Shown piece after piece: positions 20,679-48,456 of a stretch of DNA of 64,000 nucleotides (position 1 is its first letter; the number at the start of each line of letters is the position of its first letter). This stretch comes from a virus. Below the pieces are notes generated by a model. It did no database searches, was not told the DNA's origin, and saw only the letters and a list, made by a program, of their open reading frames with translations. Where the stretch lies: the IMG/VR virus record IMGVR_UViG_3300032242_001916, positions 30,101 to 94,100 of that record; one strand, 5' to 3'. A program made the translations under genes and the position numbers.

Positions 20679-22103
20679 GTGGCAAATATTACCTCCTTGT
20701 CTAACAGCCTAAGAACAGAGTTAGGCGATCTAGGTAAAGTTTTCTTACAAACTTTTGTATCTGACGGTGTTACCACAAGATACCAGCTTGATTACTACAC
20801 TATTGCCGGAGCTACCTTAATTGTTAAGGCCGGAAACACAGATATCTCCAGTACAGTTACTGTTGAGGAACATACAGGGCTTTTAATTCTAGCCACAGCC
20901 CCCGCTGCCAACACAAACATTGTAGTATCTGGCACTTTTTACCGTTACTTTACAGACGCTGAAATTCAAAACTACGTAAATATGGCGTTTATGCAGCATG
21001 CAAACACCGAAACTAATGCCTACGGATCTAAAATTGCTATGTCTAACCTTCCAGCGGTCGAGGAATACCCCGTAGTGCTCCTAGCATCCACGCTGGCGCT
21101 TTATACACTCGCTACTGATGCCTCGTATGACATTGACATCCACACGCCTGACGGTGTCTCTATACCCCGTTCTGAGCGTTACAGACAGCTCATGGACATG
21201 GTACAGGCCCGTAAAGAGCAGTATCGCGAGTTGTGTAACATGCTCAACATTGGTCTGCACCGTATTGAGGTTGCTACCCTTCGCCGTAACTCTAACCGTA
21301 CAAACCGCTATGTACCTGTATACAAGCCTCAAGAACTTGATGACAGCAGCACTCCAAAGCGTCTACACGTGCCTTTAGCTAGTTACATGGATCAATCTAC
21401 AGATACTGTGCCTACTTACGATATTAACCTATACCGCGGAGATTCATTTGAAGTTGATTTGGACTTCCCATTCAGTTTGGCAGATTACGCTTTCTTGTCT
21501 CAGATTCGAGCATACTCAGGTGCCTCGCTGGTTCTTGCTACGTTTAACGTAACTATTACGGACATTGTTAATGGCACTGCGGTTCTATCTCTAACTTCAG
21601 ATCAAACTTCGCAGCTTCCTAGCCGTGCTCTTTGGGATGTTCAGATTATCAAGAAATCTACTAGAAGCCTTAATACCAATGCAGCTTTAGCGGTAAAGCC
21701 GGGCTATAAAGGCACAGTTGCTAAAACCGGGTACGTAACTTACACAACGGCATCAGCCCATGGATTTGTAACTGGTGAAACAGTAACTATTTCAAACGTA
21801 GCCGTGCTAGACAGTTCAGGCGCAAAGAGCCTAAAAAATGCCTACAATGGCGATTTTGTTATTACAGTCTTTGATACAACAAGTTTTTACGTTACTAACA
21901 CTTACACAGCTACCCCAGCAGATACTGATGGCTACAACATTACAGACCCAGATACAGGTATTGTTTTATCCACAGTAAGTGCTGCTACTGCAACTTACAC
22001 GGATCCAACCTACACAAAGACTTATTTACATGGCGCTGTAATTGTTCAGGATCAGATTTCAAATTACAACAACGATCCATATGCTCCAGGATGGCAGGGA
22101 TGA
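20679..22103 (+). CDS. Head-tail adaptor-like protein with a C-terminal Ig-like domain carrying an inserted module
   Basis: Position; YFTDAEI; YRGDSF..WDVQ..KTYL domain split by an insert. Confidence 0.6.
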   Translation: MANITSLSNSLRTELGDLGKVFLQTFVSDGVTTRYQLDYYTIAGATLIVKAGNTDISSTVTVEEHTGLLILATAPAANTNIVVSGTFYRYFTDAEIQNYVNMAFMQHANTETNAYGSKIAMSNLPAVEEYPVVLLASTLALYTLATDASYDIDIHTPDGVSIPRSERYRQLMDMVQARKEQYRELCNMLNIGLHRIEVATLRRNSNRTNRYVPVYKPQELDDSSTPKRLHVPLASYMDQSTDTVPTYDINLYRGDSFEVDLDFPFSLADYAFLSQIRAYSGASLVLATFNVTITDIVNGTAVLSLTSDQTSQLPSRALWDVQIIKKSTRSLNTNAALAVKPGYKGTVAKTGYVTYTTASAHGFVTGETVTISNVAVLDSSGAKSLKNAYNGDFVITVFDTTSFYVTNTYTATPADTDGYNITDPDTGIVLSTVSAATATYTDPTYTKTYLHGAVIVQDQISNYNNDPYAPGWQG

Positions 22104-22423
22104 CAGACATAATTCAAATTAACCCCGGTAATCCTGAAGTAGTTGTTGTTGGTTCAGGCCAAGGTGGGGCTGTAGGTCCAGCCGGTCCAACTGGTCCAGC
22201 TGGTAAGGATGGTAAAGATGGCGTTTCTGGAGGTTTCTTTACTTATACACAGAGCGCTCCTGCAACAGTTTGGACAATTAATCATAATCTTGGGTATAGA
22301 CCTCAAGTTACCGTAGTTGACTCAGCAAACAATGTGGTAGAAGGAGACCGCGTCTATACAGACGCTAACAACCTAGTTTTAACCTTTTCTGCTCCTTTTT
22401 CTGGTGTAGCGTATTTATCTTAA
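22100..22423 (+). CDS. Short collagen-like fibre/whisker protein
   Basis: GPAGPTGPAGKDGKDG; WTINHNLG domain; ATGA coupling. Confidence 0.7.
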   Translation: MTDIIQINPGNPEVVVVGSGQGGAVGPAGPTGPAGKDGKDGVSGGFFTYTQSAPATVWTINHNLGYRPQVTVVDSANNVVEGDRVYTDANNLVLTFSAPFSGVAYLS

Positions 22424-22435
22424 GGAGATATAATA

Positions 22436-23797
22436 ATGTCGCGTAAATTTTTAACTAATCTTGATTTGAATGCAAATCAGCTATTAAATGCTGTTATTCA
22501 AAACGTTAGTTCGGACCCTACTACTGGCACGTACCCAGTTGGTCAGATAATCTATAACACTACTAGCAATGTTCTTAAATATAATACTAGCTCTACACTT
22601 AATGCCCCTAGTTGGCAGACAATTAGTAATGGCGCTGGGTCTTTTACTCTCGGGAATACTTCTATTGCTTTAGGCTCAACTGTTACGTCAGTTAATAACT
22701 TAAGCATTACAGGTACCGGCTCATGGACTGCTACCAATATTGCTGTAGCCAACGGCGGTACCGGTACTTCTACTGGCTCAATTACTGGCACTGGCGCTCT
22801 TACTTTTACCGCAGGATCAGGTAACCTTAACATTAACCTTGTTCCTACGGGAACCGGCTCTGTAGATGTTGCAAGTAAAAAGATTACAAACCTTGCTGAT
22901 CCGGGCGCTGCTCAGGATGCCGCTACTAAAGCCTATGTTGATACTGTTGCTACTGGCATGAATGCTCATGATGCTGTGGCTTATGCCACTACTGGCGCCC
23001 TTGGTACAACCGGCAACCTTGTTGGCGGAACTATTACAACTACTCAAACTACTCCGTTTCTTACTTTAACTATTGCTACTTCTTCTAACTGGACCTCAAT
23101 TACTATTGACGGACAATCACTAACTGTTGGTGACCGAGTACTTATTAAAGATCAAGCAACTGCTACACAGAACGGCCTCTACACGGTAACTTCCGTAGGT
23201 GCGGTTGGAAATACAACTTCATTTGTATTTACTCGATCTGCAGACGCGGATCAGATTCCGGAACTTGGTGCAGGCGATTTTTGCTTTGTTCTTGCTGGAA
23301 CAACTAACGGCAAGTTTACCTACATTCAGACAGCAACAGTTGTAACTCTTGGAACTAGCCCAATTAACTATACGGTGCTATCTAACGGTAACCTGACTTC
23401 TCTTGTTAGCCCATCTCAAGGCGGAACTGGTTCAAACTTAACTGCTACAACAGGTACTTTCCTTGTAGGTAACGGAACGGTATTTACTAATCGTGCTTTA
23501 GCATTTACTGATCTTGTTACTACTTCAAGCGGAACTATTTCTTTGTCCACCGGACTAAGTAATGCAACTATTGTAGTTGCTCAAAGAATTACAGCAAAAA
23601 TTACGGGCGATGGTACTACTAAGACGTTTACAGTTACTCACACACTAAACACAGCTACTTCGTTTGCTACTGCTCAAGTGTTTGATTCTACAGGTCTTCA
23701 AGTAGAATGCGACGTAACTCATACATCCACAAGCACAAAATTTGATTTTGTTACAGCCCCAAGTTCAGGCACTATTTATTACGTTACAATTGTTTAA
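22436..23797 (+). CDS. Fibre protein
   Basis: KITNLADP..AQDAATKAYVD, GDRVLIKDQ..QNGLY, VANGGTG. Confidence 0.75.
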   Translation: MSRKFLTNLDLNANQLLNAVIQNVSSDPTTGTYPVGQIIYNTTSNVLKYNTSSTLNAPSWQTISNGAGSFTLGNTSIALGSTVTSVNNLSITGTGSWTATNIAVANGGTGTSTGSITGTGALTFTAGSGNLNINLVPTGTGSVDVASKKITNLADPGAAQDAATKAYVDTVATGMNAHDAVAYATTGALGTTGNLVGGTITTTQTTPFLTLTIATSSNWTSITIDGQSLTVGDRVLIKDQATATQNGLYTVTSVGAVGNTTSFVFTRSADADQIPELGAGDFCFVLAGTTNGKFTYIQTATVVTLGTSPINYTVLSNGNLTSLVSPSQGGTGSNLTATTGTFLVGNGTVFTNRALAFTDLVTTSSGTISLSTGLSNATIVVAQRITAKITGDGTTKTFTVTHTLNTATSFATAQVFDSTGLQVECDVTHTSTSTKFDFVTAPSSGTIYYVTIV

Positions 23798-23810
23798 TAA
23801 GGAATATTAA

Positions 23811-25037
23811 ATGTCAAGAGTATTTAACACAGACGTAAATTATAATGGAAACCTTGCAATTAACTCAGGTTCAACGTCTGTTGTACCATTAATAATAAAA
23901 CCAACGGGTACTATTACTTATAGTAGCTTATCTGTATCTCACTCTGGCGGTACTCCAGGAACAGATATTATTAGTGGTTTTAGTAGTGTATCTGGTCTAT
24001 ACGTAGGTCAATATTTTACTAGTACTACCCCATTTGTACAAGGCGGAATATATACTGTTGGCTATGGAGCAGGGTCACAAATTAAATCAATTGATAGTAC
24101 TAATCTTGCTATTTCTGTTGCTGGTTCAGGTCCGTTTACTCCGACAGGTTCATATAGTGGAGGTACTCTTGTATTTTCAGGTACTCCTCAAAACTTACAA
24201 GAATGGCGGGAATCAAACAGCACAGCAGTCGCATCAGTTAGCAATACTGGGGTACTTACTGCATCAAGTTTTGTAGGAAATGGTGCATCACTAACAAGCT
24301 TGAATGGCGCAAACATATCGTCAATACCTACATCAGCATTATCTTCTGTAACTGGTACTGGCACAGTTGTTGTTACTGATGTAAACCCAACACTTACGGG
24401 CATAACATTAGTCAGCCCTATATCTGTTACATCAAACGTAGGTTTTACGGCTTTTAGTGCTGCTAGCAGTTTAACTATTCATAACTCAACTTTTACTGGT
24501 ACTGCTAGCTATTCAAGCGGTACAACTACTGGCACTGCTGTTAAGACGGTTAACTTAGGCACTGGTGCTATTTCAGGTACTGGCACAGCTGGTACTTCAC
24601 CCAACATGACTATTAACATTGGCACTGGTAACAACACTTCGACAACAGGCGGAACTGCTGTCAACATTATGACTGGTACAATTTCTGGTGGTGCAACAGG
24701 TGCGGTTACAATTGGTAGCACGTCTGCTGGCACAACGGTAACTGTTGTTAACCCTACAAATGCGCCAAGCGTTCAGTCTGGAACAACTTATTCACTACCA
24801 GCAACTGCGCCAACACCGCATTTGGTTCTAACTAGCTCATCACAAGTCACTTTGACGTTGCCAACATCCGTTGCAGGTAAAGAAATTCGCATTTTGAACC
24901 AAGGCGCTGGCGGTGTTATTTCTGCCTCATCAAACGTTTACCCAAAAACTTCTAGAACACTGGGAACTGCAATCATTACCGGTGCTGGTTCAGCATTACT
25001 TGTTGGCGATGGAACTAACTGGCAGGTAATGAGTTAA
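23811..25037 (+). CDS. Fibre protein
   Basis: Thr/Gly/Ser-rich; NLQEW, FVGNGASLTSL, TLTLP..DGTNW. Confidence 0.7.
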   Translation: MSRVFNTDVNYNGNLAINSGSTSVVPLIIKPTGTITYSSLSVSHSGGTPGTDIISGFSSVSGLYVGQYFTSTTPFVQGGIYTVGYGAGSQIKSIDSTNLAISVAGSGPFTPTGSYSGGTLVFSGTPQNLQEWRESNSTAVASVSNTGVLTASSFVGNGASLTSLNGANISSIPTSALSSVTGTGTVVVTDVNPTLTGITLVSPISVTSNVGFTAFSAASSLTIHNSTFTGTASYSSGTTTGTAVKTVNLGTGAISGTGTAGTSPNMTINIGTGNNTSTTGGTAVNIMTGTISGGATGAVTIGSTSAGTTVTVVNPTNAPSVQSGTTYSLPATAPTPHLVLTSSSQVTLTLPTSVAGKEIRILNQGAGGVISASSNVYPKTSRTLGTAIITGAGSALLVGDGTNWQVMS

Positions 25038-25150
25038 TGAACCCAAATTGTAGATCAGGCTGCAAAACCCAGGATCATGAGTCCTACGGGGATTGCTTAC
25101 AAGACGCAGCTATTAGCATAGATAGAACAAGTCTCCAGGTTAAAGGCTGA
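25037..25150 (+). CDS. Micro-protein MNPNCRSGCKTQDHESYGDCL..., not in the ORF track
   Basis: TAATG coupling; 37 aa with C..C..H..C. Confidence 0.6.
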   Translation: MNPNCRSGCKTQDHESYGDCLQDAAISIDRTSLQVKG

Positions 25151-25200
25151 CCCAAAAACTAAAAACCCTTACTATTTAAGAGAGAAGAAAGGCCCATTTA

Positions 25201-25602
25201 ATGGCTACATATTACAAGATTCTAGGTCAAGCAAAGAGCACTACTGCCCTTGCGTCAAAGCTGTACTACGCTGATCCCGCTGCTTCTACAGGGGTTCCAG
25301 CTGCTACTTCTGTACAGGCTATTGTTTCTACAATTACTGTTTGTAACATAACTTCAAGCACTCAAACTTACAACATTAATATTTACAAATCCGACTCAAT
25401 TGTTGCAGCTCCAGACACTTTTACATCTGTAGCCCCAGATAATGCAATTATTTACAATGGGTTTATCAATGCTAATGAGACTATTACTTTAACTTTAGGT
25501 ATAACTCTTGATACTTATGATAGAATTTCAGTTAATGCTTCTGGTGCCGCCTCTGGTCAATACGTTAATTTCTTTGCATTTGGTTCGGAGATTCGTCAAT
25601 GA
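25201..25602 (+). CDS. Virion/fibre-associated protein
   Basis: MATYYKILGQ...VSTITVCN...FGSEI. Confidence 0.7.
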   Translation: MATYYKILGQAKSTTALASKLYYADPAASTGVPAATSVQAIVSTITVCNITSSTQTYNINIYKSDSIVAAPDTFTSVAPDNAIIYNGFINANETITLTLGITLDTYDRISVNASGAASGQYVNFFAFGSEIRQ

Positions 25603-26594: not shown

Positions 26595-26617
26595 TATTTA
26601 ACGGTTGGGAGACCACA

Positions 26618-27127: not shown

Positions 27128-27137
27128 GAGAGCTATT

Positions 27138-27338: not shown

Positions 27339-27341
27339 AAT

Positions 27342-27557: not shown

Positions 27558-27656
27558 TTAATCAAGATATTTGTAGTCTTTAGCAGTATATTCATAGAGA
27601 CGCCGGATTTATCCGGAAACTGCTGAAGTACTGCCCTCAAGAAGAGGAAATTTGCG

Positions 27657-28786: not shown

Positions 28787-30910
28787 ATGGCTGCATTCGG
28801 TCGTCCCGGCGTATATGTACAGGAAACTGCTGTACCTCAAAATATCGCCATTCAAGACAGATCAGACGCTATTGCGGGCTTTATTGGTGCTCTTCCTAAG
28901 GGCCCAACAGTTCCAACGTTTGTAAATTCATGGTCTAACTTTGTCAAGCTTTATGGCAATCTAGACTACTCATTCCCAACAAGTGTTGCGGTTTACCAAT
29001 TTTTTACAAATGGTGGCCGCGATGCATACATTGACCGAGCTGTAAATTCAACCTCTGCTGCGGCAAGTATTCCTTTAACAAGCTCTGACGCTGCAACAGC
29101 TTTGACAGTTACTGCAAAGAGCGTAGGTTCTTGGGGTAATCAAATTTCGGTTGAAGCAATTGCTTATGGAAACCCAGTTAATAACCGTTTTTCCATTGTA
29201 GTATATGGTCAGCCATACACTACCGGTGCCGGCTTACGCTCAAACGTTTTGGAGCAATTCAATGATCTTAGTGCAACAAGCACCGATAGTCGCTATGCTG
29301 TAACATTAATTAATAACACCTCAGCATATATTACTGTAGCTGCTTCGGGTACAGGTCTTCCGGCTCCTGACGCTATTGTGCATAGTTTAGCTGGCGGTAC
29401 TGACGTAGCTATTGCAACTACCGACATTGTTTCTGCATTAACTGGGTTTGATAATATCAACACACCTTTGTTGCTTAACGCCCCTGATCTTGCTTACGTA
29501 GGCTCTACTTCAGTGCAGGGTAACTTTACACGTTCAAACGTAATTTCTGCAGTTGGTAGCATCCTTAAATACGCAGAATACCGCGGTGATGCATTTGCTA
29601 TAGTTGATACTCCAAATCTAGCTTCGGCATTTGATGCAATTAACTTTGCTACAGACGCTTCTTACTCAGCAGCTACTGCTGGAGCATCCACAATTAGTTC
29701 AAATATTTCTTCGGTTACCCCAGGTACTCAAGGATCTACCACAGCTGCTGGATACGTAACTTACACAACTACCTCGGCACATAGCTTTGTCCCGACTCAA
29801 CCAGTAACTATTACAAATGTAACTCGTGAACCTGCTCTAAATGCTAGTGCTACACTAGCCGTATTACCATCTACTCCTTCTACAGGACAGGTAAAATACG
29901 TTACTGCTGCTTCACATGGCTTTAAAACTGGTGATTTAGTAACAATCAGTGGTATTACAGGAACTGTTGGAACTACGTACAACTTTAGCACTGCTAAAGC
30001 AGTTACAGTTATTGATTCAACTTCGTTCTATGTAACCAGCGCTGTAACCGGCAGCCTAGCGTCAAACGCAGATACTTCAGCTGCTAAAGCAGTTAGCACT
30101 GGTTACAGTGGTACTTACACCATCTATTCAACTCCTACAAACTCACAGTTTGTAATTGCTAATGCTGAAACTGGTACCGCTACACTAACAGGTGCCTCTG
30201 CATCAGTTCCTACAAGCACCGGCTCTACTCCATGGACTGGTGTTTCTGCAACAGGTGCTAATGCAGCCATGTATTACCCGTGGTTGGTTGTTCCTGATAC
30301 ACGAGGTACTCCTGGCAATACAATTACTATACCTACTGGTGGAGCTATTATAGGTAAATTCCAGGCAACAGATGCTTCTCGTGGAGTATTTAAGACTCCG
30401 GCAGGTTACCAGACCAGTATTGCTGGTGCTGTTAGCCTTGGTGCATCACTATCTAATAGTGATCTTGATGCTCTTAATTCTTCAACAGTGCCTGTAAATG
30501 CGCTTCGTACATATCCAGGAGCAGGAATTGTTGTAATGGGTGGACGCACAATGTCTACTTTGGCAGCAAACCGCTACATTAACACACGACGTTCGTTAAT
30601 TTACTTAAAGAAGGAACTAAGACTGCGTACTTCATATGCAATCTTTGAGAACAATGATGCCTACTTATGGAATTCAATTACTAATGCATTGAACTCATTC
30701 TTAGGAAATTATTGGGCACAAGGAGGACTTCGTGGAAATTCTCCATTTAAAGCCTTCTACGTAAAGTGCGATTCAACTACTACTACAGATACTGACGTAG
30801 TAAACGGTCGTGTAAACGTACAAGTAGGTGTGGCTCTGGAATACCCTGCAGAGTTCATCGTCATCAACATTGGTCAGTTCACCGGCGGCACGTCTGTGAC
30901 TCAGGGTTAA
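28787..30910 (+). CDS. Contractile tail sheath protein
   Basis: RPGVYVQE, FFTNGG, AMYYPW, RGVFKTPAG, RYINTRR, PAEFIVI. Confidence 0.95.
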   Translation: MAAFGRPGVYVQETAVPQNIAIQDRSDAIAGFIGALPKGPTVPTFVNSWSNFVKLYGNLDYSFPTSVAVYQFFTNGGRDAYIDRAVNSTSAAASIPLTSSDAATALTVTAKSVGSWGNQISVEAIAYGNPVNNRFSIVVYGQPYTTGAGLRSNVLEQFNDLSATSTDSRYAVTLINNTSAYITVAASGTGLPAPDAIVHSLAGGTDVAIATTDIVSALTGFDNINTPLLLNAPDLAYVGSTSVQGNFTRSNVISAVGSILKYAEYRGDAFAIVDTPNLASAFDAINFATDASYSAATAGASTISSNISSVTPGTQGSTTAAGYVTYTTTSAHSFVPTQPVTITNVTREPALNASATLAVLPSTPSTGQVKYVTAASHGFKTGDLVTISGITGTVGTTYNFSTAKAVTVIDSTSFYVTSAVTGSLASNADTSAAKAVSTGYSGTYTIYSTPTNSQFVIANAETGTATLTGASASVPTSTGSTPWTGVSATGANAAMYYPWLVVPDTRGTPGNTITIPTGGAIIGKFQATDASRGVFKTPAGYQTSIAGAVSLGASLSNSDLDALNSSTVPVNALRTYPGAGIVVMGGRTMSTLAANRYINTRRSLIYLKKELRLRTSYAIFENNDAYLWNSITNALNSFLGNYWAQGGLRGNSPFKAFYVKCDSTTTTDTDVVNGRVNVQVGVALEYPAEFIVINIGQFTGGTSVTQG

Positions 30911-32414: not shown

Positions 32415-32577
32415 TAATAAAGAAATTTATAAATACTTATTGGATTCATATGAACTTATAAGTAGGGCCTTTGTAGGCTGGTCTCTTAAAGAGATTAGAG
32501 AGCTTAGCCACAGGGAACGTGAAAACTGGTTGCAAAGGGCAACCTTAAAACTAGGACTAGGAGACATAAATGGCTGA
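32404..32577 (+). CDS. +1-frame extension of the chaperone (FGFDNKEIYKYLLDSYELISRAFVGWSLKEIRELSHRERENWL...)
   Basis: Open +1 frame filling the gap to the tape measure gene; GWS..EI..L..RER..W motif; no ATG or GTG. Confidence 0.65.
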   Translation, partial: FGFDNKEIYKYLLDSYELISRAFVGWSLKEIRELSHRERENWLQRATLKLGLGDING

Positions 32578-35500
32578 TCCAACAGCAGGCCTTACTCCTC
32601 CTATGTCAGGATCTACAGGTTCGATTTCTCCCGTTAGTTCCGGAACTGCCGGTTCTAGCGGGAGTAAATCCCTGTATGTTAGAACCCTTGAACAGGGCTA
32701 CAACGTTATTGCAAAAACGTCTGCTATGTACGATCGTATTTTACGAACTACTAAAGAGATAAATAAAGAAAACGGTAAGCGCGGCGGAGTTGGTGGCGGC
32801 AGCACCAATATGTTTGCTAATTCAGGTGTTAATCAGCAAGCTGATGCAATGATGAATAAGCTCAACGAAATGATCCCAGCTTCTGGTATGAGTGCCGGAG
32901 GAAGAGCGGCTGTTGGGGCTGGTCAAACCGCTTTAGCCGCAGCTGGATTTATGTATTCTACACTTCCCAATGTACAAGATGCCGTATCTCAAAGAATTTC
33001 TGCACAAAGTGTTGCATCTTTGACAGGGCAAAGTGCACAAAGCGTAATAAATAGTAGTAATGCCCTTATAAAAGGTGGTATGACAGGTAACTACTCAGCG
33101 CAGTTGGCGGCACACTCTCTTGCAAGTGTAGGTGTTTATGGCACGGGTTACACTAATATTATGAGTCAAGTAGGCGGTCTTAGCGCTTTAACTGGTATGC
33201 AAAATGAGCAGGTAGCTGGAGCATACGGTGGCATTAACAGTATGAACTTTATGAGACTTGGAGTTCGTGCTCGTGATCGCCAGGGTAATATACGAGGCCC
33301 TAGTGATATCTCTAATGAACTTTACCAAAGATTAGTAGGTAAAAGAAAACTTACAATACAACAAGCAGGCAACACAATTCTTGCCCCACACTCTAGTGGT
33401 CAAATGGCAATTCAAGCAGCTGCGGGTGGAGATCAAGCATTAGCTGCAAGCTTGACAGAACAACTGTATTTTCAGGCACGCAATGGTGGAAAAAAGTTAC
33501 CACTAGGGGACCCTGAAAAAATTATGGGCAAAAAAGTTCTTAATCTTTCTGCAGACGACCCATTGCGTAAAATGTTTACTTACAATAAGCGTCAGTCTGA
33601 ATACTTACAGGCTGTGGGTGGGTCGGAAGTAGGCGGCTACGGTACTGCTTTAGATGCCAGCGGTAAGGTTGCTGAAGGAATGGCCGGACTAGCTAAAGTA
33701 ATGCCCGACGTTGTTGGTGGTATGGCTAGACTTGCAGGTCTTTTACAAACTCTTCCTGGAGCCGGTAATACAGGACTAGGATTAGCAAGTTTAGCTAGCG
33801 GAGTGGGCGGCTCTGGAACTAATATGCTTCAAATGGGTATGGAAGCCCGTGCAATAACCATGCTTGGGCGAGGAGGTGGCGGTACTCCTGGGGCAGTTGG
33901 CGGAAGAGGTATGGCAGGGTCTACTGGTGCACGCGTTCTTGGTCGGGGTCTTGGAGGACTAGCAGCTATACAAGCTACAAATATGGCAGTCCCATTTTTA
34001 CGTCAGCAAGGGCAAAAACACCTTCATATTAAGCCAGGTAGTGCTGTAGATAAAACGGGTACAATTCTTGGTACCGCAGGTGGATATGCTGCTGGTGGGG
34101 CAATGATTGGATCTGTAATACCCGGAATTGGAACAGCAGCTGGAGCAGTAGTTGGAGGTCTAGCTGGATTAGCCGTTGGTTTTATGAATTCTAATAACTC
34201 ACCTGTTGGTGGAGATGGAATTACAGGCCCGCTTAGTTGGGCGCAAACGTTATTAAAACAGATGTCTATTACCCCTAAAAATTCTGGAATTGACAATGCT
34301 ATAGCTAACTGGGAAGCACATGAAGGCGGCCATTGGGGAAATTCTGCAAGATATAACCCACTAAATACTTCTCAAAGAATGCTTCCATCCGACACAAACA
34401 TGAACTCAGATGGAGTTAAAGTGTACTCCAGTTGGTCTGAGGGACTTCAAGCCACTGTTAAAACTCTTCATTCTAAAGGGCATCATTATGAAAGAATTAT
34501 TGATGCAATGAGTAGTGGTAAACCTGATGACCTTTACCAAGCGGTTGTAGATTCAAAGTGGGGAACTACATCTCTTATGGGCCACGTAAAAAGTAAGGGG
34601 TCTCACAAAAAAACTGGAAAACCTCACGTAAATAATGGCGTGTACAACCCTCCAGCTAATGGTCCAAAAACCGCACACTTTGGTCAAAAACCACGGGTAA
34701 AAGGAAAGTATTGGACACAGTACGGGTATCATACTGGTCAAGATTACGGAGTTCCAGTAGGAACTTCTGTTAAAGCTTATAAAGCAGGAAAAGTTATACA
34801 TGCAGGCGATGGTGGCAGTAGAGCAGACCTTGGATCAGCTTGGGGTAAGGCAATCCTTGTAGATCATGGTACTCATAGAAGCCTTTATGCCCACCTGTCT
34901 CATGTTGGAGTAAGAGCAGGAGACAAAGTAAGGCCTGGTCAGCAAATTGCTTTGTCAGGTAATACTGGGTCTGCTTCGCAAGGTCCACACTTACACTTTG
35001 AAATTAGAAAAGGTGGAAAGCCTGTAGACCCAATTCCTTATCTTGGAGGCGGTAGTAGTGGTAGTTTAACTCCTCCATCTTCAACTCCAAATCCAACTCC
35101 AGGATCCTCTCCAGCCCCATCAACAGGGACTACTTCTACAAACAACTTTACTACTTGGGGAACAGGCGTTGCCCCAGGAACTCATGGAGGAACTCATGGA
35201 GGAACTCATGGAGGAACTCACAAAGCATCTGTACCTCCGTCTTCAGCTGGGCCTGCAGCTGGAGTTGTAAACACACCTAGTAGTTCAGTAGTAGTTACTA
35301 ATACAAAGCCTAGAATGCTTACTACTAGCGCAGGTCTGACTAATGCGGCTGCAGCAGCAACTCAGCTTTCTGTAAGTAATCTTGGGGTTTCATCTGGGTA
35401 TGGATCTGTAAATACTGCTTTAGGTGGAAGCTCTATTTTTAGCGCTAACTACGAGCAAGCGGATTATAGTGGATTTGGTGGAGATGCTAATCCACCTAGT

Positions 35501-35695
35501 GTTGGAAGTTTTGATCCAGTAGGAACCTCTTTACGGACAAGAAGTAGTGGTGGCAGTCATGGGGATCACGGCATAACAATTAACATGAATATTAGCATTG
35601 CTAATGCAGATACAGCTAATGCGGTTAATATGGCTAAAGAAATTAAGACAATTCTTGAACGTGAATTAAGAGATAGCAAGATTAGGAATTATTAA
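32570..35695 (+). CDS. Tape measure protein with lysozyme-like and M23 peptidase domains
   Basis: Gly/Ala-rich helical body; WEAHEGG..YNPLNT; HTGQD, YAHLS, GPHLHFE. Confidence 0.85.
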   Translation: MADPTAGLTPPMSGSTGSISPVSSGTAGSSGSKSLYVRTLEQGYNVIAKTSAMYDRILRTTKEINKENGKRGGVGGGSTNMFANSGVNQQADAMMNKLNEMIPASGMSAGGRAAVGAGQTALAAAGFMYSTLPNVQDAVSQRISAQSVASLTGQSAQSVINSSNALIKGGMTGNYSAQLAAHSLASVGVYGTGYTNIMSQVGGLSALTGMQNEQVAGAYGGINSMNFMRLGVRARDRQGNIRGPSDISNELYQRLVGKRKLTIQQAGNTILAPHSSGQMAIQAAAGGDQALAASLTEQLYFQARNGGKKLPLGDPEKIMGKKVLNLSADDPLRKMFTYNKRQSEYLQAVGGSEVGGYGTALDASGKVAEGMAGLAKVMPDVVGGMARLAGLLQTLPGAGNTGLGLASLASGVGGSGTNMLQMGMEARAITMLGRGGGGTPGAVGGRGMAGSTGARVLGRGLGGLAAIQATNMAVPFLRQQGQKHLHIKPGSAVDKTGTILGTAGGYAAGGAMIGSVIPGIGTAAGAVVGGLAGLAVGFMNSNNSPVGGDGITGPLSWAQTLLKQMSITPKNSGIDNAIANWEAHEGGHWGNSARYNPLNTSQRMLPSDTNMNSDGVKVYSSWSEGLQATVKTLHSKGHHYERIIDAMSSGKPDDLYQAVVDSKWGTTSLMGHVKSKGSHKKTGKPHVNNGVYNPPANGPKTAHFGQKPRVKGKYWTQYGYHTGQDYGVPVGTSVKAYKAGKVIHAGDGGSRADLGSAWGKAILVDHGTHRSLYAHLSHVGVRAGDKVRPGQQIALSGNTGSASQGPHLHFEIRKGGKPVDPIPYLGGGSSGSLTPPSSTPNPTPGSSPAPSTGTTSTNNFTTWGTGVAPGTHGGTHGGTHGGTHKASVPPSSAGPAAGVVNTPSSSVVVTNTKPRMLTTSAGLTNAAAAATQLSVSNLGVSSGYGSVNTALGGSSIFSANYEQADYSGFGGDANPPSVGSFDPVGTSLRTRSSGGSHGDHGITINMNISIANADTANAVNMAKEIKTILERELRDSKIRNY
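35176..35220 (+). repeat. 12-bp tandem repeat AGGAACTCATGG x3.75 (encodes GTHG repeats)
   Basis: Exact direct repeats. Confidence 0.9.
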
Positions 35696-40155: not shown

Positions 40156-41948
40156 TGAAACCTCCCACACAAATAGACTATACTTCACGTGATTATGATG
40201 CTTTAAGAAATGATTTAATACGCATAATTCAGGCAAGAATTCCGGAATGGAATGGCTTAGATGATTCTGATTTTTCTACAGCCATTGTAGATGCTTTTGC
40301 ATACCTTGGCGATATTATGTCCTACTACATTGATAGAGTGGCTAACGAATCACAGCTGCAAACAACTACAAAAAAAGATAACTTAATAAATTATGCAGAT
40401 CTTTTTGGATATAAACCTTCAGGTCCTACCCCATCTATAGCTAATATACTTTTTTCAAATAATACTTCTAATGCTGTAACCCTGCCTGCAGGAACACAGG
40501 CATATATTTCAATCATTTTAAATGATGGCACAAGTACTAAAGCTTATTTTGAAACACTTTCTTCTATAACAGTAGCTGCTAACGGCACAGCTATTGCTAC
40601 CGCTAGAGAAGGTAAAACTTCAAATACAGATGCTGCAAATAGTACTGGTATAGATCCAACTACTAAACAAGTTCTGCCAAAAGTAATTGGAACTTCAAAT
40701 GGATACGCTTACCAAGAGTTTACTATTTCAAATGAAACTAATGTCGTAGATTATTCTATAGATGTATACTCTGGACAAAGCAGCTCATTTAATAAATGGA
40801 CCTACTTTGATAATTTAATGGATGCTACCCCATTTACTACTGCTTACAGTACAAAAATGAATGGTGATGGAACTACAGCTATTATCTTTGGCGATGGTAT
40901 TAATGGTACTGTTCCAACTGCTGGAGATGATATTAGCGTTATTTACAAAGTTAGTGTAGGAGTAGCTGGAAACATTTCAAGCACTTCCTCTACAAACTAC
41001 CCAAATTTAGTAGTATCTTTTATTCCTGGAATTGGAAAAATTGCTACGGGAATTGCAGCAAAATTTGATACTACTGCTACTGGGGGCACTGACGGGGAAA
41101 GTTTTTCAACTTTACGGTCAAACATTGTAAGTGCAGTAAGTGCAAGAAACCGAGCAGTAACTCTTGCAGATCATAAAGCTTTAGCATCTATTGTTCCGGG
41201 TGTAGGTCGAGTCTCTGTAATTTCCGACGTACCAACTTCTGTAACTATGTACATGCAGCCTTACTACGACGGAACTTTAACTCCAGGGGTAACCTTGCAG
41301 ACTGCAAATGCATCTATTAGTGCCATTTCCGGAACTTCGGGAACTGTAACTGTAACCACTAGTACAGCTCATGGGTTTGTATCAGGAACTACAATAACTA
41401 TTACTGGGTGTGGCGCATACAATGGGACTTTCCCAAATATTATAGTTACCGATTCTACTCATTTTACTTACAGTAGCTCAATTACAGCTAGCGTTACTCC
41501 TTCAGCTGCTATTGCAGCAAATACCCTTTCAGTATCAAATAGTGCGTGGACTTATATAAAAAGAGATCTTTATAGATTCTTAATTAAGAGAATGTTAGTA
41601 AGTTCATCTCTAACTATTAACCCTCCTAACTATGCTTTATTAAATCTAGCTATGACGGTAACTATCAACAACTCATACAAAACCTCAGACGTAAAAGCTA
41701 AAATTGCTAACGTTTTGCTAAATACCGATAATGGAGTATTTTCATATGGGGGATTTGGGTTTGGGGATACAGTTGCACAATCCATTATTCAATCAGCAGT
41801 CATGTCAGTTCCTGGCGTTAACTATGTAAATATTACTATTTTAGCTAGAACAGGTTCTACAGGGGCTTCAGATGTATATTTAGATTTAAACGAAATACCA
41901 GTGCTTTATCCAGCTAACTTAACTTTAAATATGGTAGGCGGAATCTAA
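40155..41948 (+). CDS. Baseplate J-like wedge protein
   Basis: IDYTSRDY, FGDGING.VP, GGTDGES, RAVTL.D, VPGV. Confidence 0.9.
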   Translation: MKPPTQIDYTSRDYDALRNDLIRIIQARIPEWNGLDDSDFSTAIVDAFAYLGDIMSYYIDRVANESQLQTTTKKDNLINYADLFGYKPSGPTPSIANILFSNNTSNAVTLPAGTQAYISIILNDGTSTKAYFETLSSITVAANGTAIATAREGKTSNTDAANSTGIDPTTKQVLPKVIGTSNGYAYQEFTISNETNVVDYSIDVYSGQSSSFNKWTYFDNLMDATPFTTAYSTKMNGDGTTAIIFGDGINGTVPTAGDDISVIYKVSVGVAGNISSTSSTNYPNLVVSFIPGIGKIATGIAAKFDTTATGGTDGESFSTLRSNIVSAVSARNRAVTLADHKALASIVPGVGRVSVISDVPTSVTMYMQPYYDGTLTPGVTLQTANASISAISGTSGTVTVTTSTAHGFVSGTTITITGCGAYNGTFPNIIVTDSTHFTYSSSITASVTPSAAIAANTLSVSNSAWTYIKRDLYRFLIKRMLVSSSLTINPPNYALLNLAMTVTINNSYKTSDVKAKIANVLLNTDNGVFSYGGFGFGDTVAQSIIQSAVMSVPGVNYVNITILARTGSTGASDVYLDLNEIPVLYPANLTLNMVGGI

Positions 41949-42032
41949 TAGCCTTAGGTTTAAAAAGATTTATTGCAAAACATAAGACAATATAGTAGGG
42001 GGGAATTAACTAAAATCTTTTGGAGATAAAAG

Positions 42033-42857: not shown

Positions 42858-42858
42858 A

Positions 42859-43179: not shown

Positions 43180-43200
43180 TATTTAGGATCGGTGTAAAAA

Positions 43201-46200
43201 ATGGCCTTATATGGTAAGTACCGCTATGGTCTACCTCTTTATGGCGCTTTTGATAGTAGCGCAGTTAACAACATCTCCTACAATGCGTCGTTAACCGCAA
43301 TACAGAATGATTATGGAATCATTGAATTAATGTGGGGAACTGTAACTATTGATAGTACAGATACCGCAATTACTGACTGGAAAATTATCAGAACTGTGGG
43401 CGGTGCCCCTGACTACCCAAATACATTTACACCAGTAGTTGTATATGGAACTACTTCAGTAACCTCTAATGGAGGTAGTTCATATTCTTTAAGATACACT
43501 GATTATCAAAGTAATATTATAACTTCAAACACTTATACTTTTTTTGAAAATTACTTTCCTTCTGGAACGCAAGTAACTTATTCTCTTTGGGTATTCAATG
43601 GATTGCGTTGGATATTTGCAGGCCTTGCTGATCAAATTATTACGGGCGTAACTGAAACTACCGATAAAGTTTTGCGAATGCTACCTGCAGCTTGGACAAA
43701 CTCAGTTGGTGGCACTGGCGATATAACCGGCTATCCAAGCAGATATGATGATTCAACAAATACAGTTTTTAAAATTAACTCTGTTACTCCTAATTCTCCA
43801 AGTCGGGGGTACGTAACCTACACCACAACAACTTCAATGCCCATAAAATACTATGGACAGTATGCTTTGATTTCTGGAATAAGCATAGACGGATATAACG
43901 GTAACTATAATATAATTTTTAAAGACTCTAATACATTTTTTGCTGTAAATAATACGACTAATATTTCAGGTTTAGATCTTAGCGGTGCAACCGTAAGCGT
44001 TGCAGAAGAGACTTCTCTTTGGAAGTTTCTTAGTGGGTTTACTTTCTATTACGATAGATTGCGTACCGAAGTAAGTCTTATTGACACTATTAGTGACTAT
44101 AGACATACCCCATACAATATGCTTCCACTAGCAATCCAAACTCAAGGTTTTAATTACCGACAAGATTTAGGAACAAGTTACCTACGATCTATGCATAGAG
44201 TTGGCCATAGAATTAACTCTTTAAAAGGTACTGAAATTGGTCTAAAAATGTATGTGGGGTCTTTATTAAGCTCTTATTCAAGAAGATACCAATCTACAAA
44301 TTTATTTCTAAACTATAACGATTCTTCTTTTGAAGAATCTATAGGTAACTGGGATATAAATGACGGTAATACTTTTAGCGCAAAAAAATATGCAAACGCA
44401 GTTACTGACTTAGGTGTTGGTTATTCTACGTTATCTTCTCCTCTAAGGGATGGCCTTACTTTAGGAAAGATCATAAAGACAGCAGGCTATGGACTAATTA
44501 CTTCTGCCGGAACTTCTGACATTGTTTTAACTTCTTATAAAATTCCTGAATACACAATTTCTACTGTAACCCCCAACTCTCCATCAACGGGGTATGTAAC
44601 TTATGCCACGTCAACACCGACTAAATACAGAGATGATAATAGTGTGTATATCTCTGGCGTATCTCCGTCAGGGTATTCAGGTAGTTTTAACGTAACAATG
44701 TTGGACTCAAGCAGTTTTTATGTAAGAAACACTACTACTGCAACTCCAACTCTTTCTAGCGCAAAAATTAGGTCGTCTGTTTCAATACCTACAATTACAA
44801 GGACTATCCCAATAACAGGTGGAAGATCCTACATATTAACAGGCTACATACAAAAACTAACTGGAAACACTGGAGCTGCTAACGTAGCCGCTCAGATTAA
44901 TTGGTATGATAATCAGGGATACCCTATAAACACAAATACTGCCTATTCTACCGCAGTAACTATTGGTACGTCTTGGACTCTATTTACTTCTTCTTCAAGT
45001 TCTCCAAACTATATAGCACCGTCCAATGCCGCGTATGCTTCAGTAAATATTAAAATTACCAGCCCGGCAAATACGGATAAGTTTATTATTGACATGCTTA
45101 GCTTTACAGAAATGTCTGAAAGTACTCTCAACAGCATTGAATATATACCAATTGAAACAATGTTTGAAGAAGCAAATTCAACTGTTTTAGAAATAGATGG
45201 ATTTAGAACAAACCTTATTACTAACCCCGGTTTTAGTGAAGGTGTAGGTAGCTGGAGTACTCTTAATGGTTCGCTAATACAAGATTTTACTACTAGTACC
45301 TATGGAAATAGCTGCGCTAAATTTACTCCTACAAGCTCTGGAGCAGCTGTATCTTCAAACTGGATAGAAGTAACTCCTGGAGAATATTACACTTTCAGTG
45401 TTTATGTAAAATCTTCTTTAGCAAATAAAAGTGCAAAAATTGCTATTGAATTTAGTATTCCATCTGATACAGATCTTGATTCAGCTATTACAACCAGTGC
45501 AAATGGACCTTATTACAACCCAACAATAAATAAGACGTACTCTTCTTTAACTCCAATAAGTAATACCCAATTTACTAGGGTTAGTGTTAAAGCCAAAGCA
45601 CCAGGTTTTTCACCTATTATCGGTGTTCCAAAAGCAATAGTATCTATAGAACCTGATGGATATACTGCAGGTCAAAGTTGGTTTATAGATAGCGTTTTAT
45701 TTGAAAAGAACGCGCTATTATTGCCTTACTTCCAAGGAGACGGCGGACCTACCCCTACAGGAACTAATCTTTATACAGCTATTCATACTCCTGCTAATGA
45801 TTGTATTTGGGAAGTTAGGCCACGTGCTAACTTTGTTTATAATCCGTCTTTTGAAAATGGAATCACTAGTTTTTACACACCTAGTTTTACAGGAACAAGC
45901 GGCTCAGCAACACTAACCTCAATAACTACTGAAACTGTAGGGGGTTTAACTTTTGCTCCTAAACCTAGTACAGGCACAAGTTACTTTGGAAAAATTGCTA
46001 CAAATTCAACTACTACATCTTCAACAATACTAACTTCATTTAGGTATCCATACATGACTACGTCTAGTGGTATTCCTAATAGCCCTGCAGGTGGAGAATC
46101 TTTTGCTGCATCAGCTTATGTAACTTCAGCAGTAGCTGGAACGTACACCATTACATTTACAGATGTAACTAGTGGCATAACTTACTCAAATTCATTTACG

Positions 46201-48456
46201 GTAAGTACCCCAAGTATAGATTGGTACAGAATTCATGTTATTGGGTATGTAGGAAAACCTATTACAAGTAACCCTAGAGGTTTTATCAGTATCAAGTTTA
46301 CCCCAACTTCATCTCCGGCCGCAGTAGCTTGGTATGTAGATGCAGTACAAGGTGAATATGGTTCAGCTCCAACTTCATTTATTATTCCTGGAGATGCTAA
46401 TACAACCACAATTACTAATCTTTCAGAAACACTGCTTGGTGCAGGACTACTTACTAGCAATATTTCCTCTGTTGCACTTAATTCTCCAACTACAGACTAC
46501 GTAACTTACACAACAGCAACTCCACATAATATTTCTCCTGGAGATACTGTAACTGTTAGTGGAGTAACTGTTCCTGCAGTTCAGACTATTAGCGCAATTA
46601 TTAAAAACTCTACGCCGACAGTTTCTACAGACTTTGCTAATGGCCTTAACTCAATAACTACTTCGACGTTTAATACAACTGCTTTAACTGCGGCATCTAC
46701 AAATGCATCTTTATCTATAAACTCCTATACTCCTACAAGCACTGGATTTTATGCTATGGCAGACCAAACTTTAGGGTCTTTCCCAGCTACAACTACCTCT
46801 GTACAAGTATTCTCAAATGCATCAAGTGCAGGGGAAGCAGTTATTACTGCTAATACATCTGCAAATGCAAGTACTGCAAGTCCTTTCTTAAGTGTAGTTG
46901 CGGGTCGAGTTTACTACGCAGAAGTTAGAGGTATAGCACCCACATCTGGTAGATCAGTAACTTTAAATATAAAGTGGCTAGATGCTTCAGGATCTGTACT
47001 CAGCACTACTTCAGGAACAGCAGTTACTACTTCAGCTCTTATTACAAAATCTGCAACTAGTTCCTCGGGGAATAGCATTGTTGTAACAAGTTCGACATCT
47101 TTAGTAGCAGGTACTTCAACTAACCCGGGATCAATGATTCAAGGACCTAGTTCCAATTATCTTCCAGGCGGTAACGCAATTACTGCTATTTCAGGTGGTG
47201 GATCTTCCTATACCTTAACTATGCAATATCCAGTAACTACAAACTCAAGTACAACACAAAACATTGCTTTTGTTAATCCTATTAAAGTTACGGCACAAGG
47301 TACAGCTCCTACAGGCGCCGTAAATGCATACTTATCTATAAGTTTAAATGCGGCAGGTAACAATAACTTACACATTAATTACCCTAAATTTTTAGATCTT
47401 ACAACCACAAATATTACAGTAGGTAGTACAGCTAATTACAGTGTTGGCCAGTCAGTTGTTCTATCTGGTATAACAACCCCAACAGGATACAATTTAACCT
47501 CTACAATTACAGGCATCAATTCTGGAACTAACACCTTTACTATTGATAACAATAATGCAGCGGGATCTGTAACTGGAACTCCTAGAGTTACTATCCCAAA
47601 TAACTTTCTTGGAACTTTTGTTGCTTCAGTTCAAAATATAAGCCCGTACAAATTTGCAGTACCAGTTTCTGTTAACTATACAACCCCAACTGTAACTGGT
47701 GGAACAGTTTCTATTACTAATACCACTTCTGGTAAAAATACCTATAGCACTTCCGCTCAAATGTCGGGGTTGGGTAGAAGTCATTATTGGCCATCGGGGT
47801 ATGGCGGTAAGTTATCTAGGTTGTTTAAAACAATAGGTGATTACTTGCCAATGAACTCAAGTTACAAATTCCAAATTGGTGAGCAAAAACGACCTAATTT
47901 AGAAATAACACCTTCTATAATTTCTGCTAGTTCATTTGAAAATAATTTAACTAATTGGAAGCCAACTACATCTAATAGCGTTCTTTCTAGAACCTTAGCA
48001 AAAGGGTCTTTGTATTCAGAATATGCAGCGCTTAGTGGAAGTTGGGCTACCGTAACTAATACGGCTAGTAGTGAAGCAACTTTTGGTTTATATCAAACAA
48101 ATATTGCTTGCACTCCATTAACTCAATACGACCTAACAGCTGCGGTAAAATTCCCGGCAACGTCTGATCTAGGCACAGTTACTATGACAATAAATTGGTA
48201 CGATTCATTTGGAAATGATGCGTTTCAATACAATAGTGATGGATCTAAAGTTAGTTCATCAAATACCTTTACTATTACAAGTTCTGCAAAGACAACTATT
48301 AACCAGTGGTATCTCATAAGAAACACCGCGGATTTGATTATTATCTCTCCTCCAACATCTTACTCTTGTCGAGTGACTATTACAAATACTCCAAGTACTA
48401 CTAGAACAGGCACTAACACATTCCTAGTTGACAGCGTTACTTTAAAAGAAGTATAG
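43201..48456 (+). CDS. Large baseplate wedge / receptor-binding protein with CBM-like domains
   Basis: gpI-like KGTE.GL; repeated N.SFE....W and ..D.V..E domains; inserted beta modules. Confidence 0.75.
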   Translation: MALYGKYRYGLPLYGAFDSSAVNNISYNASLTAIQNDYGIIELMWGTVTIDSTDTAITDWKIIRTVGGAPDYPNTFTPVVVYGTTSVTSNGGSSYSLRYTDYQSNIITSNTYTFFENYFPSGTQVTYSLWVFNGLRWIFAGLADQIITGVTETTDKVLRMLPAAWTNSVGGTGDITGYPSRYDDSTNTVFKINSVTPNSPSRGYVTYTTTTSMPIKYYGQYALISGISIDGYNGNYNIIFKDSNTFFAVNNTTNISGLDLSGATVSVAEETSLWKFLSGFTFYYDRLRTEVSLIDTISDYRHTPYNMLPLAIQTQGFNYRQDLGTSYLRSMHRVGHRINSLKGTEIGLKMYVGSLLSSYSRRYQSTNLFLNYNDSSFEESIGNWDINDGNTFSAKKYANAVTDLGVGYSTLSSPLRDGLTLGKIIKTAGYGLITSAGTSDIVLTSYKIPEYTISTVTPNSPSTGYVTYATSTPTKYRDDNSVYISGVSPSGYSGSFNVTMLDSSSFYVRNTTTATPTLSSAKIRSSVSIPTITRTIPITGGRSYILTGYIQKLTGNTGAANVAAQINWYDNQGYPINTNTAYSTAVTIGTSWTLFTSSSSSPNYIAPSNAAYASVNIKITSPANTDKFIIDMLSFTEMSESTLNSIEYIPIETMFEEANSTVLEIDGFRTNLITNPGFSEGVGSWSTLNGSLIQDFTTSTYGNSCAKFTPTSSGAAVSSNWIEVTPGEYYTFSVYVKSSLANKSAKIAIEFSIPSDTDLDSAITTSANGPYYNPTINKTYSSLTPISNTQFTRVSVKAKAPGFSPIIGVPKAIVSIEPDGYTAGQSWFIDSVLFEKNALLLPYFQGDGGPTPTGTNLYTAIHTPANDCIWEVRPRANFVYNPSFENGITSFYTPSFTGTSGSATLTSITTETVGGLTFAPKPSTGTSYFGKIATNSTTTSSTILTSFRYPYMTTSSGIPNSPAGGESFAASAYVTSAVAGTYTITFTDVTSGITYSNSFTVSTPSIDWYRIHVIGYVGKPITSNPRGFISIKFTPTSSPAAVAWYVDAVQGEYGSAPTSFIIPGDANTTTITNLSETLLGAGLLTSNISSVALNSPTTDYVTYTTATPHNISPGDTVTVSGVTVPAVQTISAIIKNSTPTVSTDFANGLNSITTSTFNTTALTAASTNASLSINSYTPTSTGFYAMADQTLGSFPATTTSVQVFSNASSAGEAVITANTSANASTASPFLSVVAGRVYYAEVRGIAPTSGRSVTLNIKWLDASGSVLSTTSGTAVTTSALITKSATSSSGNSIVVTSSTSLVAGTSTNPGSMIQGPSSNYLPGGNAITAISGGGSSYTLTMQYPVTTNSSTTQNIAFVNPIKVTAQGTAPTGAVNAYLSISLNAAGNNNLHINYPKFLDLTTTNITVGSTANYSVGQSVVLSGITTPTGYNLTSTITGINSGTNTFTIDNNNAAGSVTGTPRVTIPNNFLGTFVASVQNISPYKFAVPVSVNYTTPTVTGGTVSITNTTSGKNTYSTSAQMSGLGRSHYWPSGYGGKLSRLFKTIGDYLPMNSSYKFQIGEQKRPNLEITPSIISASSFENNLTNWKPTTSNSVLSRTLAKGSLYSEYAALSGSWATVTNTASSEATFGLYQTNIACTPLTQYDLTAAVKFPATSDLGTVTMTINWYDSFGNDAFQYNSDGSKVSSSNTFTITSSAKTTINQWYLIRNTADLIIISPPTSYSCRVTITNTPSTTRTGTNTFLVDSVTLKEV

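What the first reader, a model, noticed from the sequence alone, without database searches (positions are those of the whole stretch)
20679..47718. One ~75-aa beta module inserted in frame into four unrelated core virion proteins
Seen: a module with consensus I.S.TP..P..GYVTYTT...H.F..G..V.ISG....YNG.F.......SF.V interrupts the adaptor Ig-like domain (21657-21998, between WDVQ and KTYL), the sheath (29693-30208, two copies), baseplate J (41301-41519) and the 1751-aa wedge protein (43762-44001, 44548-44778, 46453-47718). It also occurs in tandem in the protein at 10713. The 17-mer TACGTAACTTACACAAC is identical at 21732, 29753 and 46498, and has 2 mismatches at 43810. Established: Ig-like domains are known to decorate phage structural proteins. 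Inference: this module (it resembles the E1 FCCH-like beta domain) spread within this lineage and coats neck, sheath and baseplate with one adhesive or shielding unit. Shared synonymous sites suggest copying or gene conversion between genes.
Basis: partly seen in the sequence, partly recalled or inferred. Interest (0 to 1): 0.8.

Follow-up and report, generated by a model that had tools for sequence, protein, structure and literature searches.

The report
Beta-barrel module inserted into phage virion proteins
A small, self-folding beta-barrel domain (the fold of the ubiquitin-E1 FCCH domain and the endosialidase barrel) has been inserted in frame, step by step, into loops of five virion proteins of an uncultured 94-kb contractile-tailed phage, once inside a copy of itself, which shows how phages repeatedly decorate their particles with one portable unit.

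Summary
A module of about 60 aa occurs 10-11 times in five proteins of this complete 94.1-kb IMG/VR phage genome:
- the 335-aa protein at 10713 (two copies)
- the 474-aa 'adaptor' (one)
- the tail sheath (two, one nested inside the other)
- baseplate J (one)
- the 1751-aa baseplate-distal protein (three or four)

An AlphaFold model of the sheath insert matches the E1 FCCH domain twice: the outer barrel at Z 9.5 and the inner barrel at Z 8.2.

Homologues give clean presence or absence at every site. About 30 sheaths, about 50 baseplate J proteins and about 25 'wedge' proteins lack the inserts.

The spread was stepwise. The adaptor and sheath inserts are shared with a clade of relatives. The syntenic sister G001 lacks the baseplate J and wedge inserts.

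Independent gains also occur elsewhere:
- other sheath sites
- another adaptor loop
- the same baseplate J loop in L014

The module family is large: 3020 clusters, mostly tandem arrays in big phage proteins.

Gene conversion is not supported beyond one 17-nt patch.

A function in surface decoration or glycan binding is inferred from the endosialidase barrel and from FCCH-decorated tail tubes. It was not tested.

The scan's note e1-5966092 had already recorded the nested pair on this same window.

Verdict: a new variant of a known kind.

The parts
10956..11138 (+). Module copy a in the 335-aa protein at 10713 (aa 82-142)
   Evidence: HMM iE 1.5e-21, a seed sequence. It is the most divergent copy.
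11193..11363 (+). Module copy b in the 335-aa protein (aa 161-217)
   Evidence: Pfam E1_FCCH 30.5 bits, above the 29.5 cut-off. HMM hit.
21657..21998 (+). Insert in the C-terminal beta domain of the 474-aa 'adaptor'. The module core is 21714-21911 (aa 346-411).
   Evidence: Relatives of about 360 aa have a contiguous domain. Relatives at 72-76% identity (L002, L067-L070) carry the module at the same site. Pfam E1_FCCH E 8e-4.
29660..30244 (+). Sheath insert (aa 292-486), absent from short sheaths
   Evidence: The L004 sheath aligns to aa 1-291 and 487-700 only. About 30 sheaths of 494-528 aa lack it.
29693..29830 (+). Sheath outer barrel, N-terminal half (aa 303-348)
   Evidence: HMM iE 1.9e-7. 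E1 FCCH aligns to model residues 4..179 and skips the inner domain, Z 9.5.
29873..30055 (+). Sheath inner barrel, a complete copy nested in the outer one (aa 363-423)
   Evidence: Pfam E1_FCCH 29.5 bits. Model residues 48..141 match UBA1 FCCH at Z 8.2 and 2v31 at Z 7.2.
30095..30211 (+). Sheath outer barrel, C-terminal half (aa 437-475, GYSGTYTI..SQFVIANAE)
   Evidence: It is the best C-half outside the inner copy in a splice scan: 36.7 against a background of 28.2 +/- 2.9. It is conserved in 13 sheaths. AF2 predicts strands there.
41289..41546 (+). Baseplate J insert. The module core is 41316-41489 (aa 388-445).
   Evidence: About 50 homologues have only a short linker between TPG and WT. Sister G001 has a 13-aa linker.
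43774..43962 (+). Copy 1 in the 1751-aa protein (aa 192-254)
   Evidence: HMM 3e-23. Relatives of 1122-1164 aa have a gap at aa ~185-261.
44557..44742 (+). Copy 2 in the 1751-aa protein (aa 453-514)
   Evidence: HMM 4e-24. Relatives have a gap at aa ~457-525. It is sister to copy 1, 97/89.
46468..47703 (+). Third insert block of the 1751-aa protein (aa ~1090-1501). It holds copy 3 (46480-46635), a ~250-aa CBM-like stretch, copy 4 (47401-47562) and a tail.
   Evidence: Relatives align to aa 526-1089 and 1502-1750 only. Copy 3 iE 9e-9 and copy 4 iE 4e-5. No C-half of a split copy 3 was detectable.
21732..21748 (+). 17-mer encoding YVTYT(T); identical copies lie at 29753-29769 and 46498-46514, and a copy with 2 mismatches at 43810-43826

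Best explanation
The module is an autonomous six-stranded beta-barrel of about 60-90 aa. It has the fold of the E1 FCCH domain, which is related to the endosialidase barrel.

Because it folds on its own, it can be dropped in frame into a loop without breaking the host protein. It has even been inserted into a loop of another copy of itself.

Shown here:
- It was acquired stepwise in this phage lineage.
- An ancestor gained the nested pair in the sheath and one copy in the 'adaptor'.
- G000's own branch later gained a copy in baseplate J and three insert blocks in the 1751-aa baseplate-distal protein. Two of those copies arose by duplication within the gene.
- Other phages gained the module independently at other loops, and once at the same baseplate J loop.

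Inferred:
- The barrels project from the outside of the neck region, sheath and baseplate.
- There they act as accessory decoration. The most likely role is weak, multivalent binding of host-surface polysaccharide that helps adsorption.
- This would parallel the polysialic-acid site on the endosialidase barrel and the Ig-like domains of other phages.
For: Fold:
- The AF2 model of sheath aa 298-480 has pLDDT 80.8.
- VIA-align against 48,161 chains ranks E1 FCCH first to third:
  - 4p22_B: Z 9.5, rmsd 2.1 A, 76 aa, model 4..179
  - 9mc4_A: Z 8.2, model 48..141
  - 2v31: Z 7.2
- Foldseek returns only Uba1 and Uba6 at the top.
- Pfam gives PF16190.
- The PDB profile search gives E1 at E 0.027 and the endoNF barrel at E 0.13.

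Presence or absence:
- sheath
- baseplate J
- 1751-aa protein
- adaptor

Stepwise spread:
- G001 has 3 matches, all in the adaptor and sheath.
- Its baseplate J and wedge sites are empty.
- G000 and G001 baseplate J are sisters, 98/96.
- The 13 nested-insert sheaths need one change on the host tree.

Independent gains:
- P0035/P0036 and P0049 carry the module at other sheath sites.
- L076 and L080 carry it in another adaptor loop.
- L014 baseplate J sits among insert-less relatives.

Breadth and function leads:
- 3020 representative clusters, with up to 19 copies per protein.
- Members hit E1_FCCH and End_beta_barrel.
- BFVD hits are cyanophage fibre and wedge proteins and 'endosialidase beta barrel' proteins.
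- FCCH domains face outward on siphovirus tail tubes (PMC13576161).
- The K1F endosialidase barrel holds a polysialic-acid site that discriminates hosts (PMC12632334).
Against: - No experiment or multimer model places the barrels on the virion surface.
- No ligand-binding residues were identified.
- G000 copies do not reach Pfam's End_beta_barrel model at E <= 0.1, and the phi92 endosialidase barrel is only Z 5.7.
- The copy tree has 59 columns. AU tests do not reject a single origin of the two baseplate J copies (p 0.14) or of all adaptor copies (p 0.21).
- Loss rather than gain cannot be excluded for G001.
- The host is unknown.
Confidence: 0.7

Rival explanations
1. The barrels are structural cement rather than adhesins. 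They would make extra contacts between sheath subunits, neck and baseplate proteins that stabilise the extended tail or protect it, with no ligand binding.
For: - The nested pair has been kept in all 13 sheaths of a clade that has diverged to about 50% identity. This suggests a fixed structural role.
- Extra sheath domains in solved phages are often lattice contacts. The sheath core here aligns to three-domain sheaths (KP1, P1, T4 gp18) over about 430 aa.
Against: - The same module sits in very different contexts: a fibre-like 1751-aa protein, tandem arrays in proteins of up to 6.5 kaa, and tail fibres of cyanophages. Such contexts do not form lattices.
- Close relatives assemble without it.
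Confidence: 0.2
2. Copies within G000 are being homogenised by gene conversion or were copied very recently. This would explain the shared 17-mer.
For: - A 17-mer shared by three or more copies arose in 1 of 2000 codon-usage simulations.
- All five G000 copies with the YVTY motif use GTA for Val, whereas five orthologous adaptor copies in relatives use GTT or GTC and vary at the other synonymous sites.
- Sheath outer N-half against wedge copy 3: 11 of 14 identical residues use the same codon, against 5.5 expected.
Against: - Over all pairs, same-codon matches are 250 against 227.5 expected.
- Identity collapses immediately on both sides of the 17-mer.
- Copies are only 22-55% identical in protein.
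- A 17-mer shared by two copies is unremarkable, p 0.13.
- Adaptor and sheath copies track their host genes across genomes.
Confidence: 0.15
3. The inserts are an old, vertically inherited feature of these protein families, so nothing spread.
For: - Adaptor copies cluster by gene at 100/100.
- The sheath nested pair has one origin in a 13-member clade.
Against: - Most homologues of all four host proteins lack the inserts.
- The sister genome lacks two of the four.
- Other lineages carry the module at different sites.
Confidence: 0.05

Closest known systems
FCCH domain of ubiquitin-activating enzyme E1 (Pfam PF16190; PDB 2v31, 4p22)
   Same: - Same six-stranded beta-barrel fold: Z 9.5, 8.2 and 7.2, rmsd 2.1-2.3 A over 75-77 residues.
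- Shared sequence motif HGF.tGD.V.fs...ng...v.vl....F.
- From my own knowledge, the E1 FCCH is itself an insertion into another domain.
   Different: - No E1 adenylation, catalytic-cysteine or UFD domains here.
- The hosts are phage virion proteins.
- Most copies score below Pfam's cut-off.
FCCH-like domain fused to siphovirus tail tube proteins (PF08813; phages NBD2 and MED16; PMC13576161)
   Same: The same fold serves as an outward-facing accessory domain of a phage tail protein. Solved tail proteins FCWL1 9jlf_E (Z 6.7) and Mystique tube 9n71_B (Z 6.4) appear among the structural matches.
   Different: - There it is a terminal fusion to one protein, the tube.
- Here it is an internal insertion into five other proteins.
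- It includes a self-nested pair.
- The tube gene of this phage (30929-31552) has none.
Beta-barrel domain of phage endosialidases (Pfam PF12195; endoNF 1v0e, phi92 4hiz)
   Same: - It is a barrel inserted into another domain of a phage virion protein.
- Weak sequence match to endoNF aa 204-240.
- phi92 barrel: Z 5.7, 24% identity.
- Family members hit PF12195 below its cut-off.
- It has a documented polysialic-acid binding site (PMC12632334).
   Different: - G000 copies do not reach PF12195.
- No sialidase propeller is present.
- Binding residues were not compared.
Ig-like decoration domains on tailed-phage structural proteins (Fraser et al. 2006, cited from my own knowledge; T4 Hoc)
   Same: One small beta domain recurs on head, neck, tail and baseplate proteins. 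It is dispensable in relatives and is presumed to bind carbohydrates weakly.
   Different: - The fold is different: a barrel, not an Ig sandwich.
- Here the domains are mostly internal loop insertions rather than terminal additions or frameshift extensions.

Membership tests
Pfam PF16190 E1_FCCH | Score at or above the gathering cut-off (29.5 bits) | tested here: inconclusive
   - The sheath inner copy scores 29.5 bits and the protein-10713 copy b 30.5 bits, so both are at or over the cut-off.
- Adaptor 19.8 and the 1751-aa protein 18.1 bits; baseplate J has no Pfam hit.
- Six-frame search: 30.7, 28.1, 23.3, 14.5 and 12.9 bits.
- More distant family members score 34-59 bits.
Pfam PF16190 E1_FCCH | Six-stranded FCCH beta-barrel fold | tested here: met
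   - 4p22_B: Z 9.5, rmsd 2.1 A, 76 aa.
- 9mc4_A: Z 8.2.
- 2v31: Z 7.2.
- These stand above the generic barrels at Z 5-6.
- The Foldseek top 50 are all Uba1 or Uba6.
Pfam PF16190 E1_FCCH | Part of a ubiquitin-like activating enzyme (adenylation and catalytic cysteine domains) | tested here: not met
   The host proteins are a sheath (Z 38 to solved sheaths), baseplate J (PF04865) and other virion proteins. No E1 domains appear in Pfam.
Pfam PF12195 End_beta_barrel (endosialidase barrel) | Score at or above the gathering cut-off (35 bits) | tested here: not met
   No PF12195 hit at E <= 0.1 for any of the five G000 proteins. Wider family members reach only 22-28 bits.
Pfam PF12195 End_beta_barrel (endosialidase barrel) | Structural match to the endosialidase barrel | tested here: inconclusive
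   phi92 endosialidase 4hiz_A aa 256-339: Z 5.7, rmsd 2.9 A, 81 aa, 24% identity. endoNF profile hit at E 0.13.
Pfam PF12195 End_beta_barrel (endosialidase barrel) | Sialic-acid binding site residues | not tested
   No residue-level superposition was possible with these tools.
Phage accessory decoration domains (Ig-like class) | Ig-like beta-sandwich fold | tested here: not met
   The fold is an FCCH-type barrel. It may work like an Ig-like decoration domain but is not a member of that class.
Phage accessory decoration domains (Ig-like class) | Dispensable: close homologues of the host protein lack it | tested here: met
Phage accessory decoration domains (Ig-like class) | Exposed on the virion surface and binds carbohydrate | not testable with these tools
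   This needs a virion structure or a binding assay.

The most novel reading that the evidence does not exclude
The barrel behaves as a domain-level mobile cassette. Its most conserved coding patch (the YVTYTT 17-mer, kept identical in three G000 copies while orthologues drift) would serve as a short homology anchor for recombination. That recombination would copy the module in frame into new loops, including loops of existing copies. This would explain the recurrent independent insertions, the reuse of the same baseplate J loop, and the self-nesting.
Probability: 0.1. Interest if true: 0.8.

Novelty: new variant of a known kind. Interest (0 to 1): 0.55.

Why it matters
- It gives an unusually clean natural series of the same protein, with and without the insert, at seven or more sites. 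The series shows how phage particles acquire surface domains by loop insertion rather than by terminal fusion.
- It shows that one fold tolerates insertion into itself.
- It marks permissive loops in the sheath, baseplate J and a neck-proximal protein. Such loops could be used for display or engineering.
- It points to a large family (3020 clusters), hardly discussed in the papers searched, of FCCH/endosialidase-type barrels in aquatic phage fibres. Their ligands are unknown.
- If the barrels bind glycans, a phage coated with hundreds of them on its sheath would be an extreme case of multivalent, non-fibre adsorption.

Tried and rejected
- **Cultured-phage database.** No nucleotide match. Only distant sheath matches, with no record covering 80% of the query. 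No tblastn match for the isolated module.
- **PDB sequence searches.** The whole adaptor gave only chance-level hits and protein 10713 gave none. Their roles stay unassigned.
- **Protein Atlas.** It gave only weak leads: SU10 adaptor at 0.80 and CBM_4_9 at 0.88.
- **Split copy 3 in the 1751-aa protein.** No C-terminal half scores above background (rank 315 of 1457). HMMER aligns copy 3 contiguously to profile positions 1-50. I therefore dropped the reading of 46453-47718 as one split module.
- **AU tests on the 59-column copy tree.** They could not separate one origin from two for the baseplate J or adaptor copies.
- **The 351-aa G005 protein.** I had taken it for a homologue of protein 10713 and the ancestral carrier. 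It is not one by BLAST, so I dropped the 'donor' idea.
- **Chance or low-complexity resemblance.** Rejected on Pfam, cross-BLAST (55% over 74 aa between an adaptor and a sheath copy) and fold.
Full report
**Setting**

The window is bases 30101-94100 of a complete 94.1-kb IMG/VR virus record with direct terminal repeats. Its genes in order are:
- terminase, portal and major head protein
- sheath, tube and a tape measure with a peptidase domain
- baseplate hub and wedge genes, then baseplate J
- a 1751-aa protein

The AF2 model of the sheath (pLDDT 83.4) matches solved sheaths at Z 38. No cultured phage is close.

**Observation**

The 17-mer is exact at 21732, 29753 and 46498, and has two mismatches at 43810.

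An HMM built from seven copies finds the module only in the five named proteins. It also recovers copies that were not in the seed. The first 30 kb of the genome has none. Pfam reports E1_FCCH in four of the five proteins.

The copies are 22-55% identical to one another.

**Fold**

The model of sheath aa 298-480 has pLDDT 80.8. It was searched against 48,161 PDB chains.
- The top three matches are E1 FCCH domains.
- One covers model residues 4..179 with only 76 aligned residues (Z 9.5). This is the outer barrel, and the alignment skips the middle of the model.
- Two cover residues 48..141 (Z 8.2 and 7.2). This is the inner barrel.

This confirms one barrel nested inside another.

Further support for the nesting:
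- A splice scan finds the outer C-half at aa 439.
- All 13 long sheaths conserve the order N-half, full copy, C-half.

Lower structural matches are phage tail proteins and the phi92 endosialidase barrel. Foldseek lists only Uba1 and Uba6.

**Presence and absence in homologues**

- *Sheath.* Thirteen homologues of 707-801 aa carry the nested pair. About 30 homologues of 494-528 aa lack aa 292-486.
- *Baseplate J.* About 50 homologues have a short linker where G000 and L014/L015 have the module.
- *The 1751-aa protein.* Relatives of 1122-1164 aa align around three gaps. These gaps equal copies 1 and 2 and the block aa 1090-1501.
- *Adaptor.* Five relatives at 72-76% identity (L002, L067-L070) share the insert, and about 360-aa relatives lack it.

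**History of the inserts**

- With insert columns removed, the 13 long sheaths form one clade, which implies one gain. P0035/P0036 and P0049 carry the module at other sites, which implies separate gains.
- Adaptor copies cluster by gene at 100/100.
- G001 is a syntenic 72-kb relative. It has the module in the adaptor and sheath only, and its baseplate J and 1129-aa wedge homologue are empty at all the sites.
- G000 and G001 baseplate J are sisters (98/96). L014 lies among insert-less proteins, so the same loop was most parsimoniously hit twice.
- L076 and L080 carry the module in a different adaptor loop.
- G000 wedge copies 1 and 2 are sisters (97/89). The G000 baseplate J copy lies inside the lineage's own clade of copies.
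- AU tests on this short alignment are inconclusive.

**Gene conversion**

- Synonymous matching overall is near expectation: 250 observed against 227.5 expected.
- Identity ends at the borders of the 17-mer.
- Three copies sharing a 17-mer is nevertheless rare in simulation (p 0.0005), whereas two copies sharing one is not (p 0.13).
- Orthologous adaptor copies in relatives differ at these synonymous sites.

I read this as, at most, a short homogenised patch.

**Breadth of the family**

- The profile finds 3020 representative clusters, often as arrays of up to 19 copies.
- Members hit PF16190 and, below its cut-off, PF12195.
- BFVD matches are cyanophage fibre and wedge proteins and proteins annotated as endosialidase barrels.

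**Function (inferred)**

- FCCH domains face outward on siphovirus tail tubes (PMC13576161).
- The K1F endosialidase barrel binds polysialic acid and discriminates hosts (PMC12632334).
- Exposure on this virion and any ligand remain untested.

- The block 46453-47718 is not shown to be one split module.
- The labels 'adaptor', 'Ig-like' and 'wedge' are unverified.

Noticed in passing
P0010 and P0012 (sheath homologues), alignment A5 columns ~375-455: Two sheaths carry a further ~75-aa beta-rich insert inside the outer barrel, just before the inner copy. This would be a third level of insertion at the same spot.
   Followed up: no
P0013-P0018, L001 and L003 sheaths, alignment A5 columns ~585-680: This sub-clade has a third complete module in tandem after the nested pair, giving sheaths of 795-802 aa.
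   Followed up: partly
window 43201-48456, aa ~526-1085 and ~1150-1400: The 1751-aa protein looks like a string of CBM-like jelly-roll domains (Atlas lead CBM_4_9, score 0.88). It may be a receptor-binding fibre rather than a wedge protein.
   Followed up: partly
window 32570-35695, aa ~700-830: The tape-measure protein contains a metallo-endopeptidase (M23-like) domain, by many PHROG hits at E down to 3e-24.
   Followed up: no
L086 1355-2407 (-), = G005: The module-poor 99-kb relative encodes a 351-aa protein with two module-like barrels. It is not homologous to the protein at 10713.
   Followed up: partly
window 21729, 29750, 43807, 44590, 46495: All five G000 copies with the (G/D)YVTY motif use GTA for valine. 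Five orthologous adaptor copies in relatives use GTT or GTC.
   Followed up: partly
L071 11710-16326 and L072 13025-17641: A 1538-aa ORF downstream of module-less adaptors has a weak partial module hit (aa 602-647, iE 0.0024).
   Followed up: no
L084 10803-12632 (G001 baseplate J): G001 baseplate J lacks the module but is about 600 aa because of a different C-terminal extension of about 85 aa.
   Followed up: no
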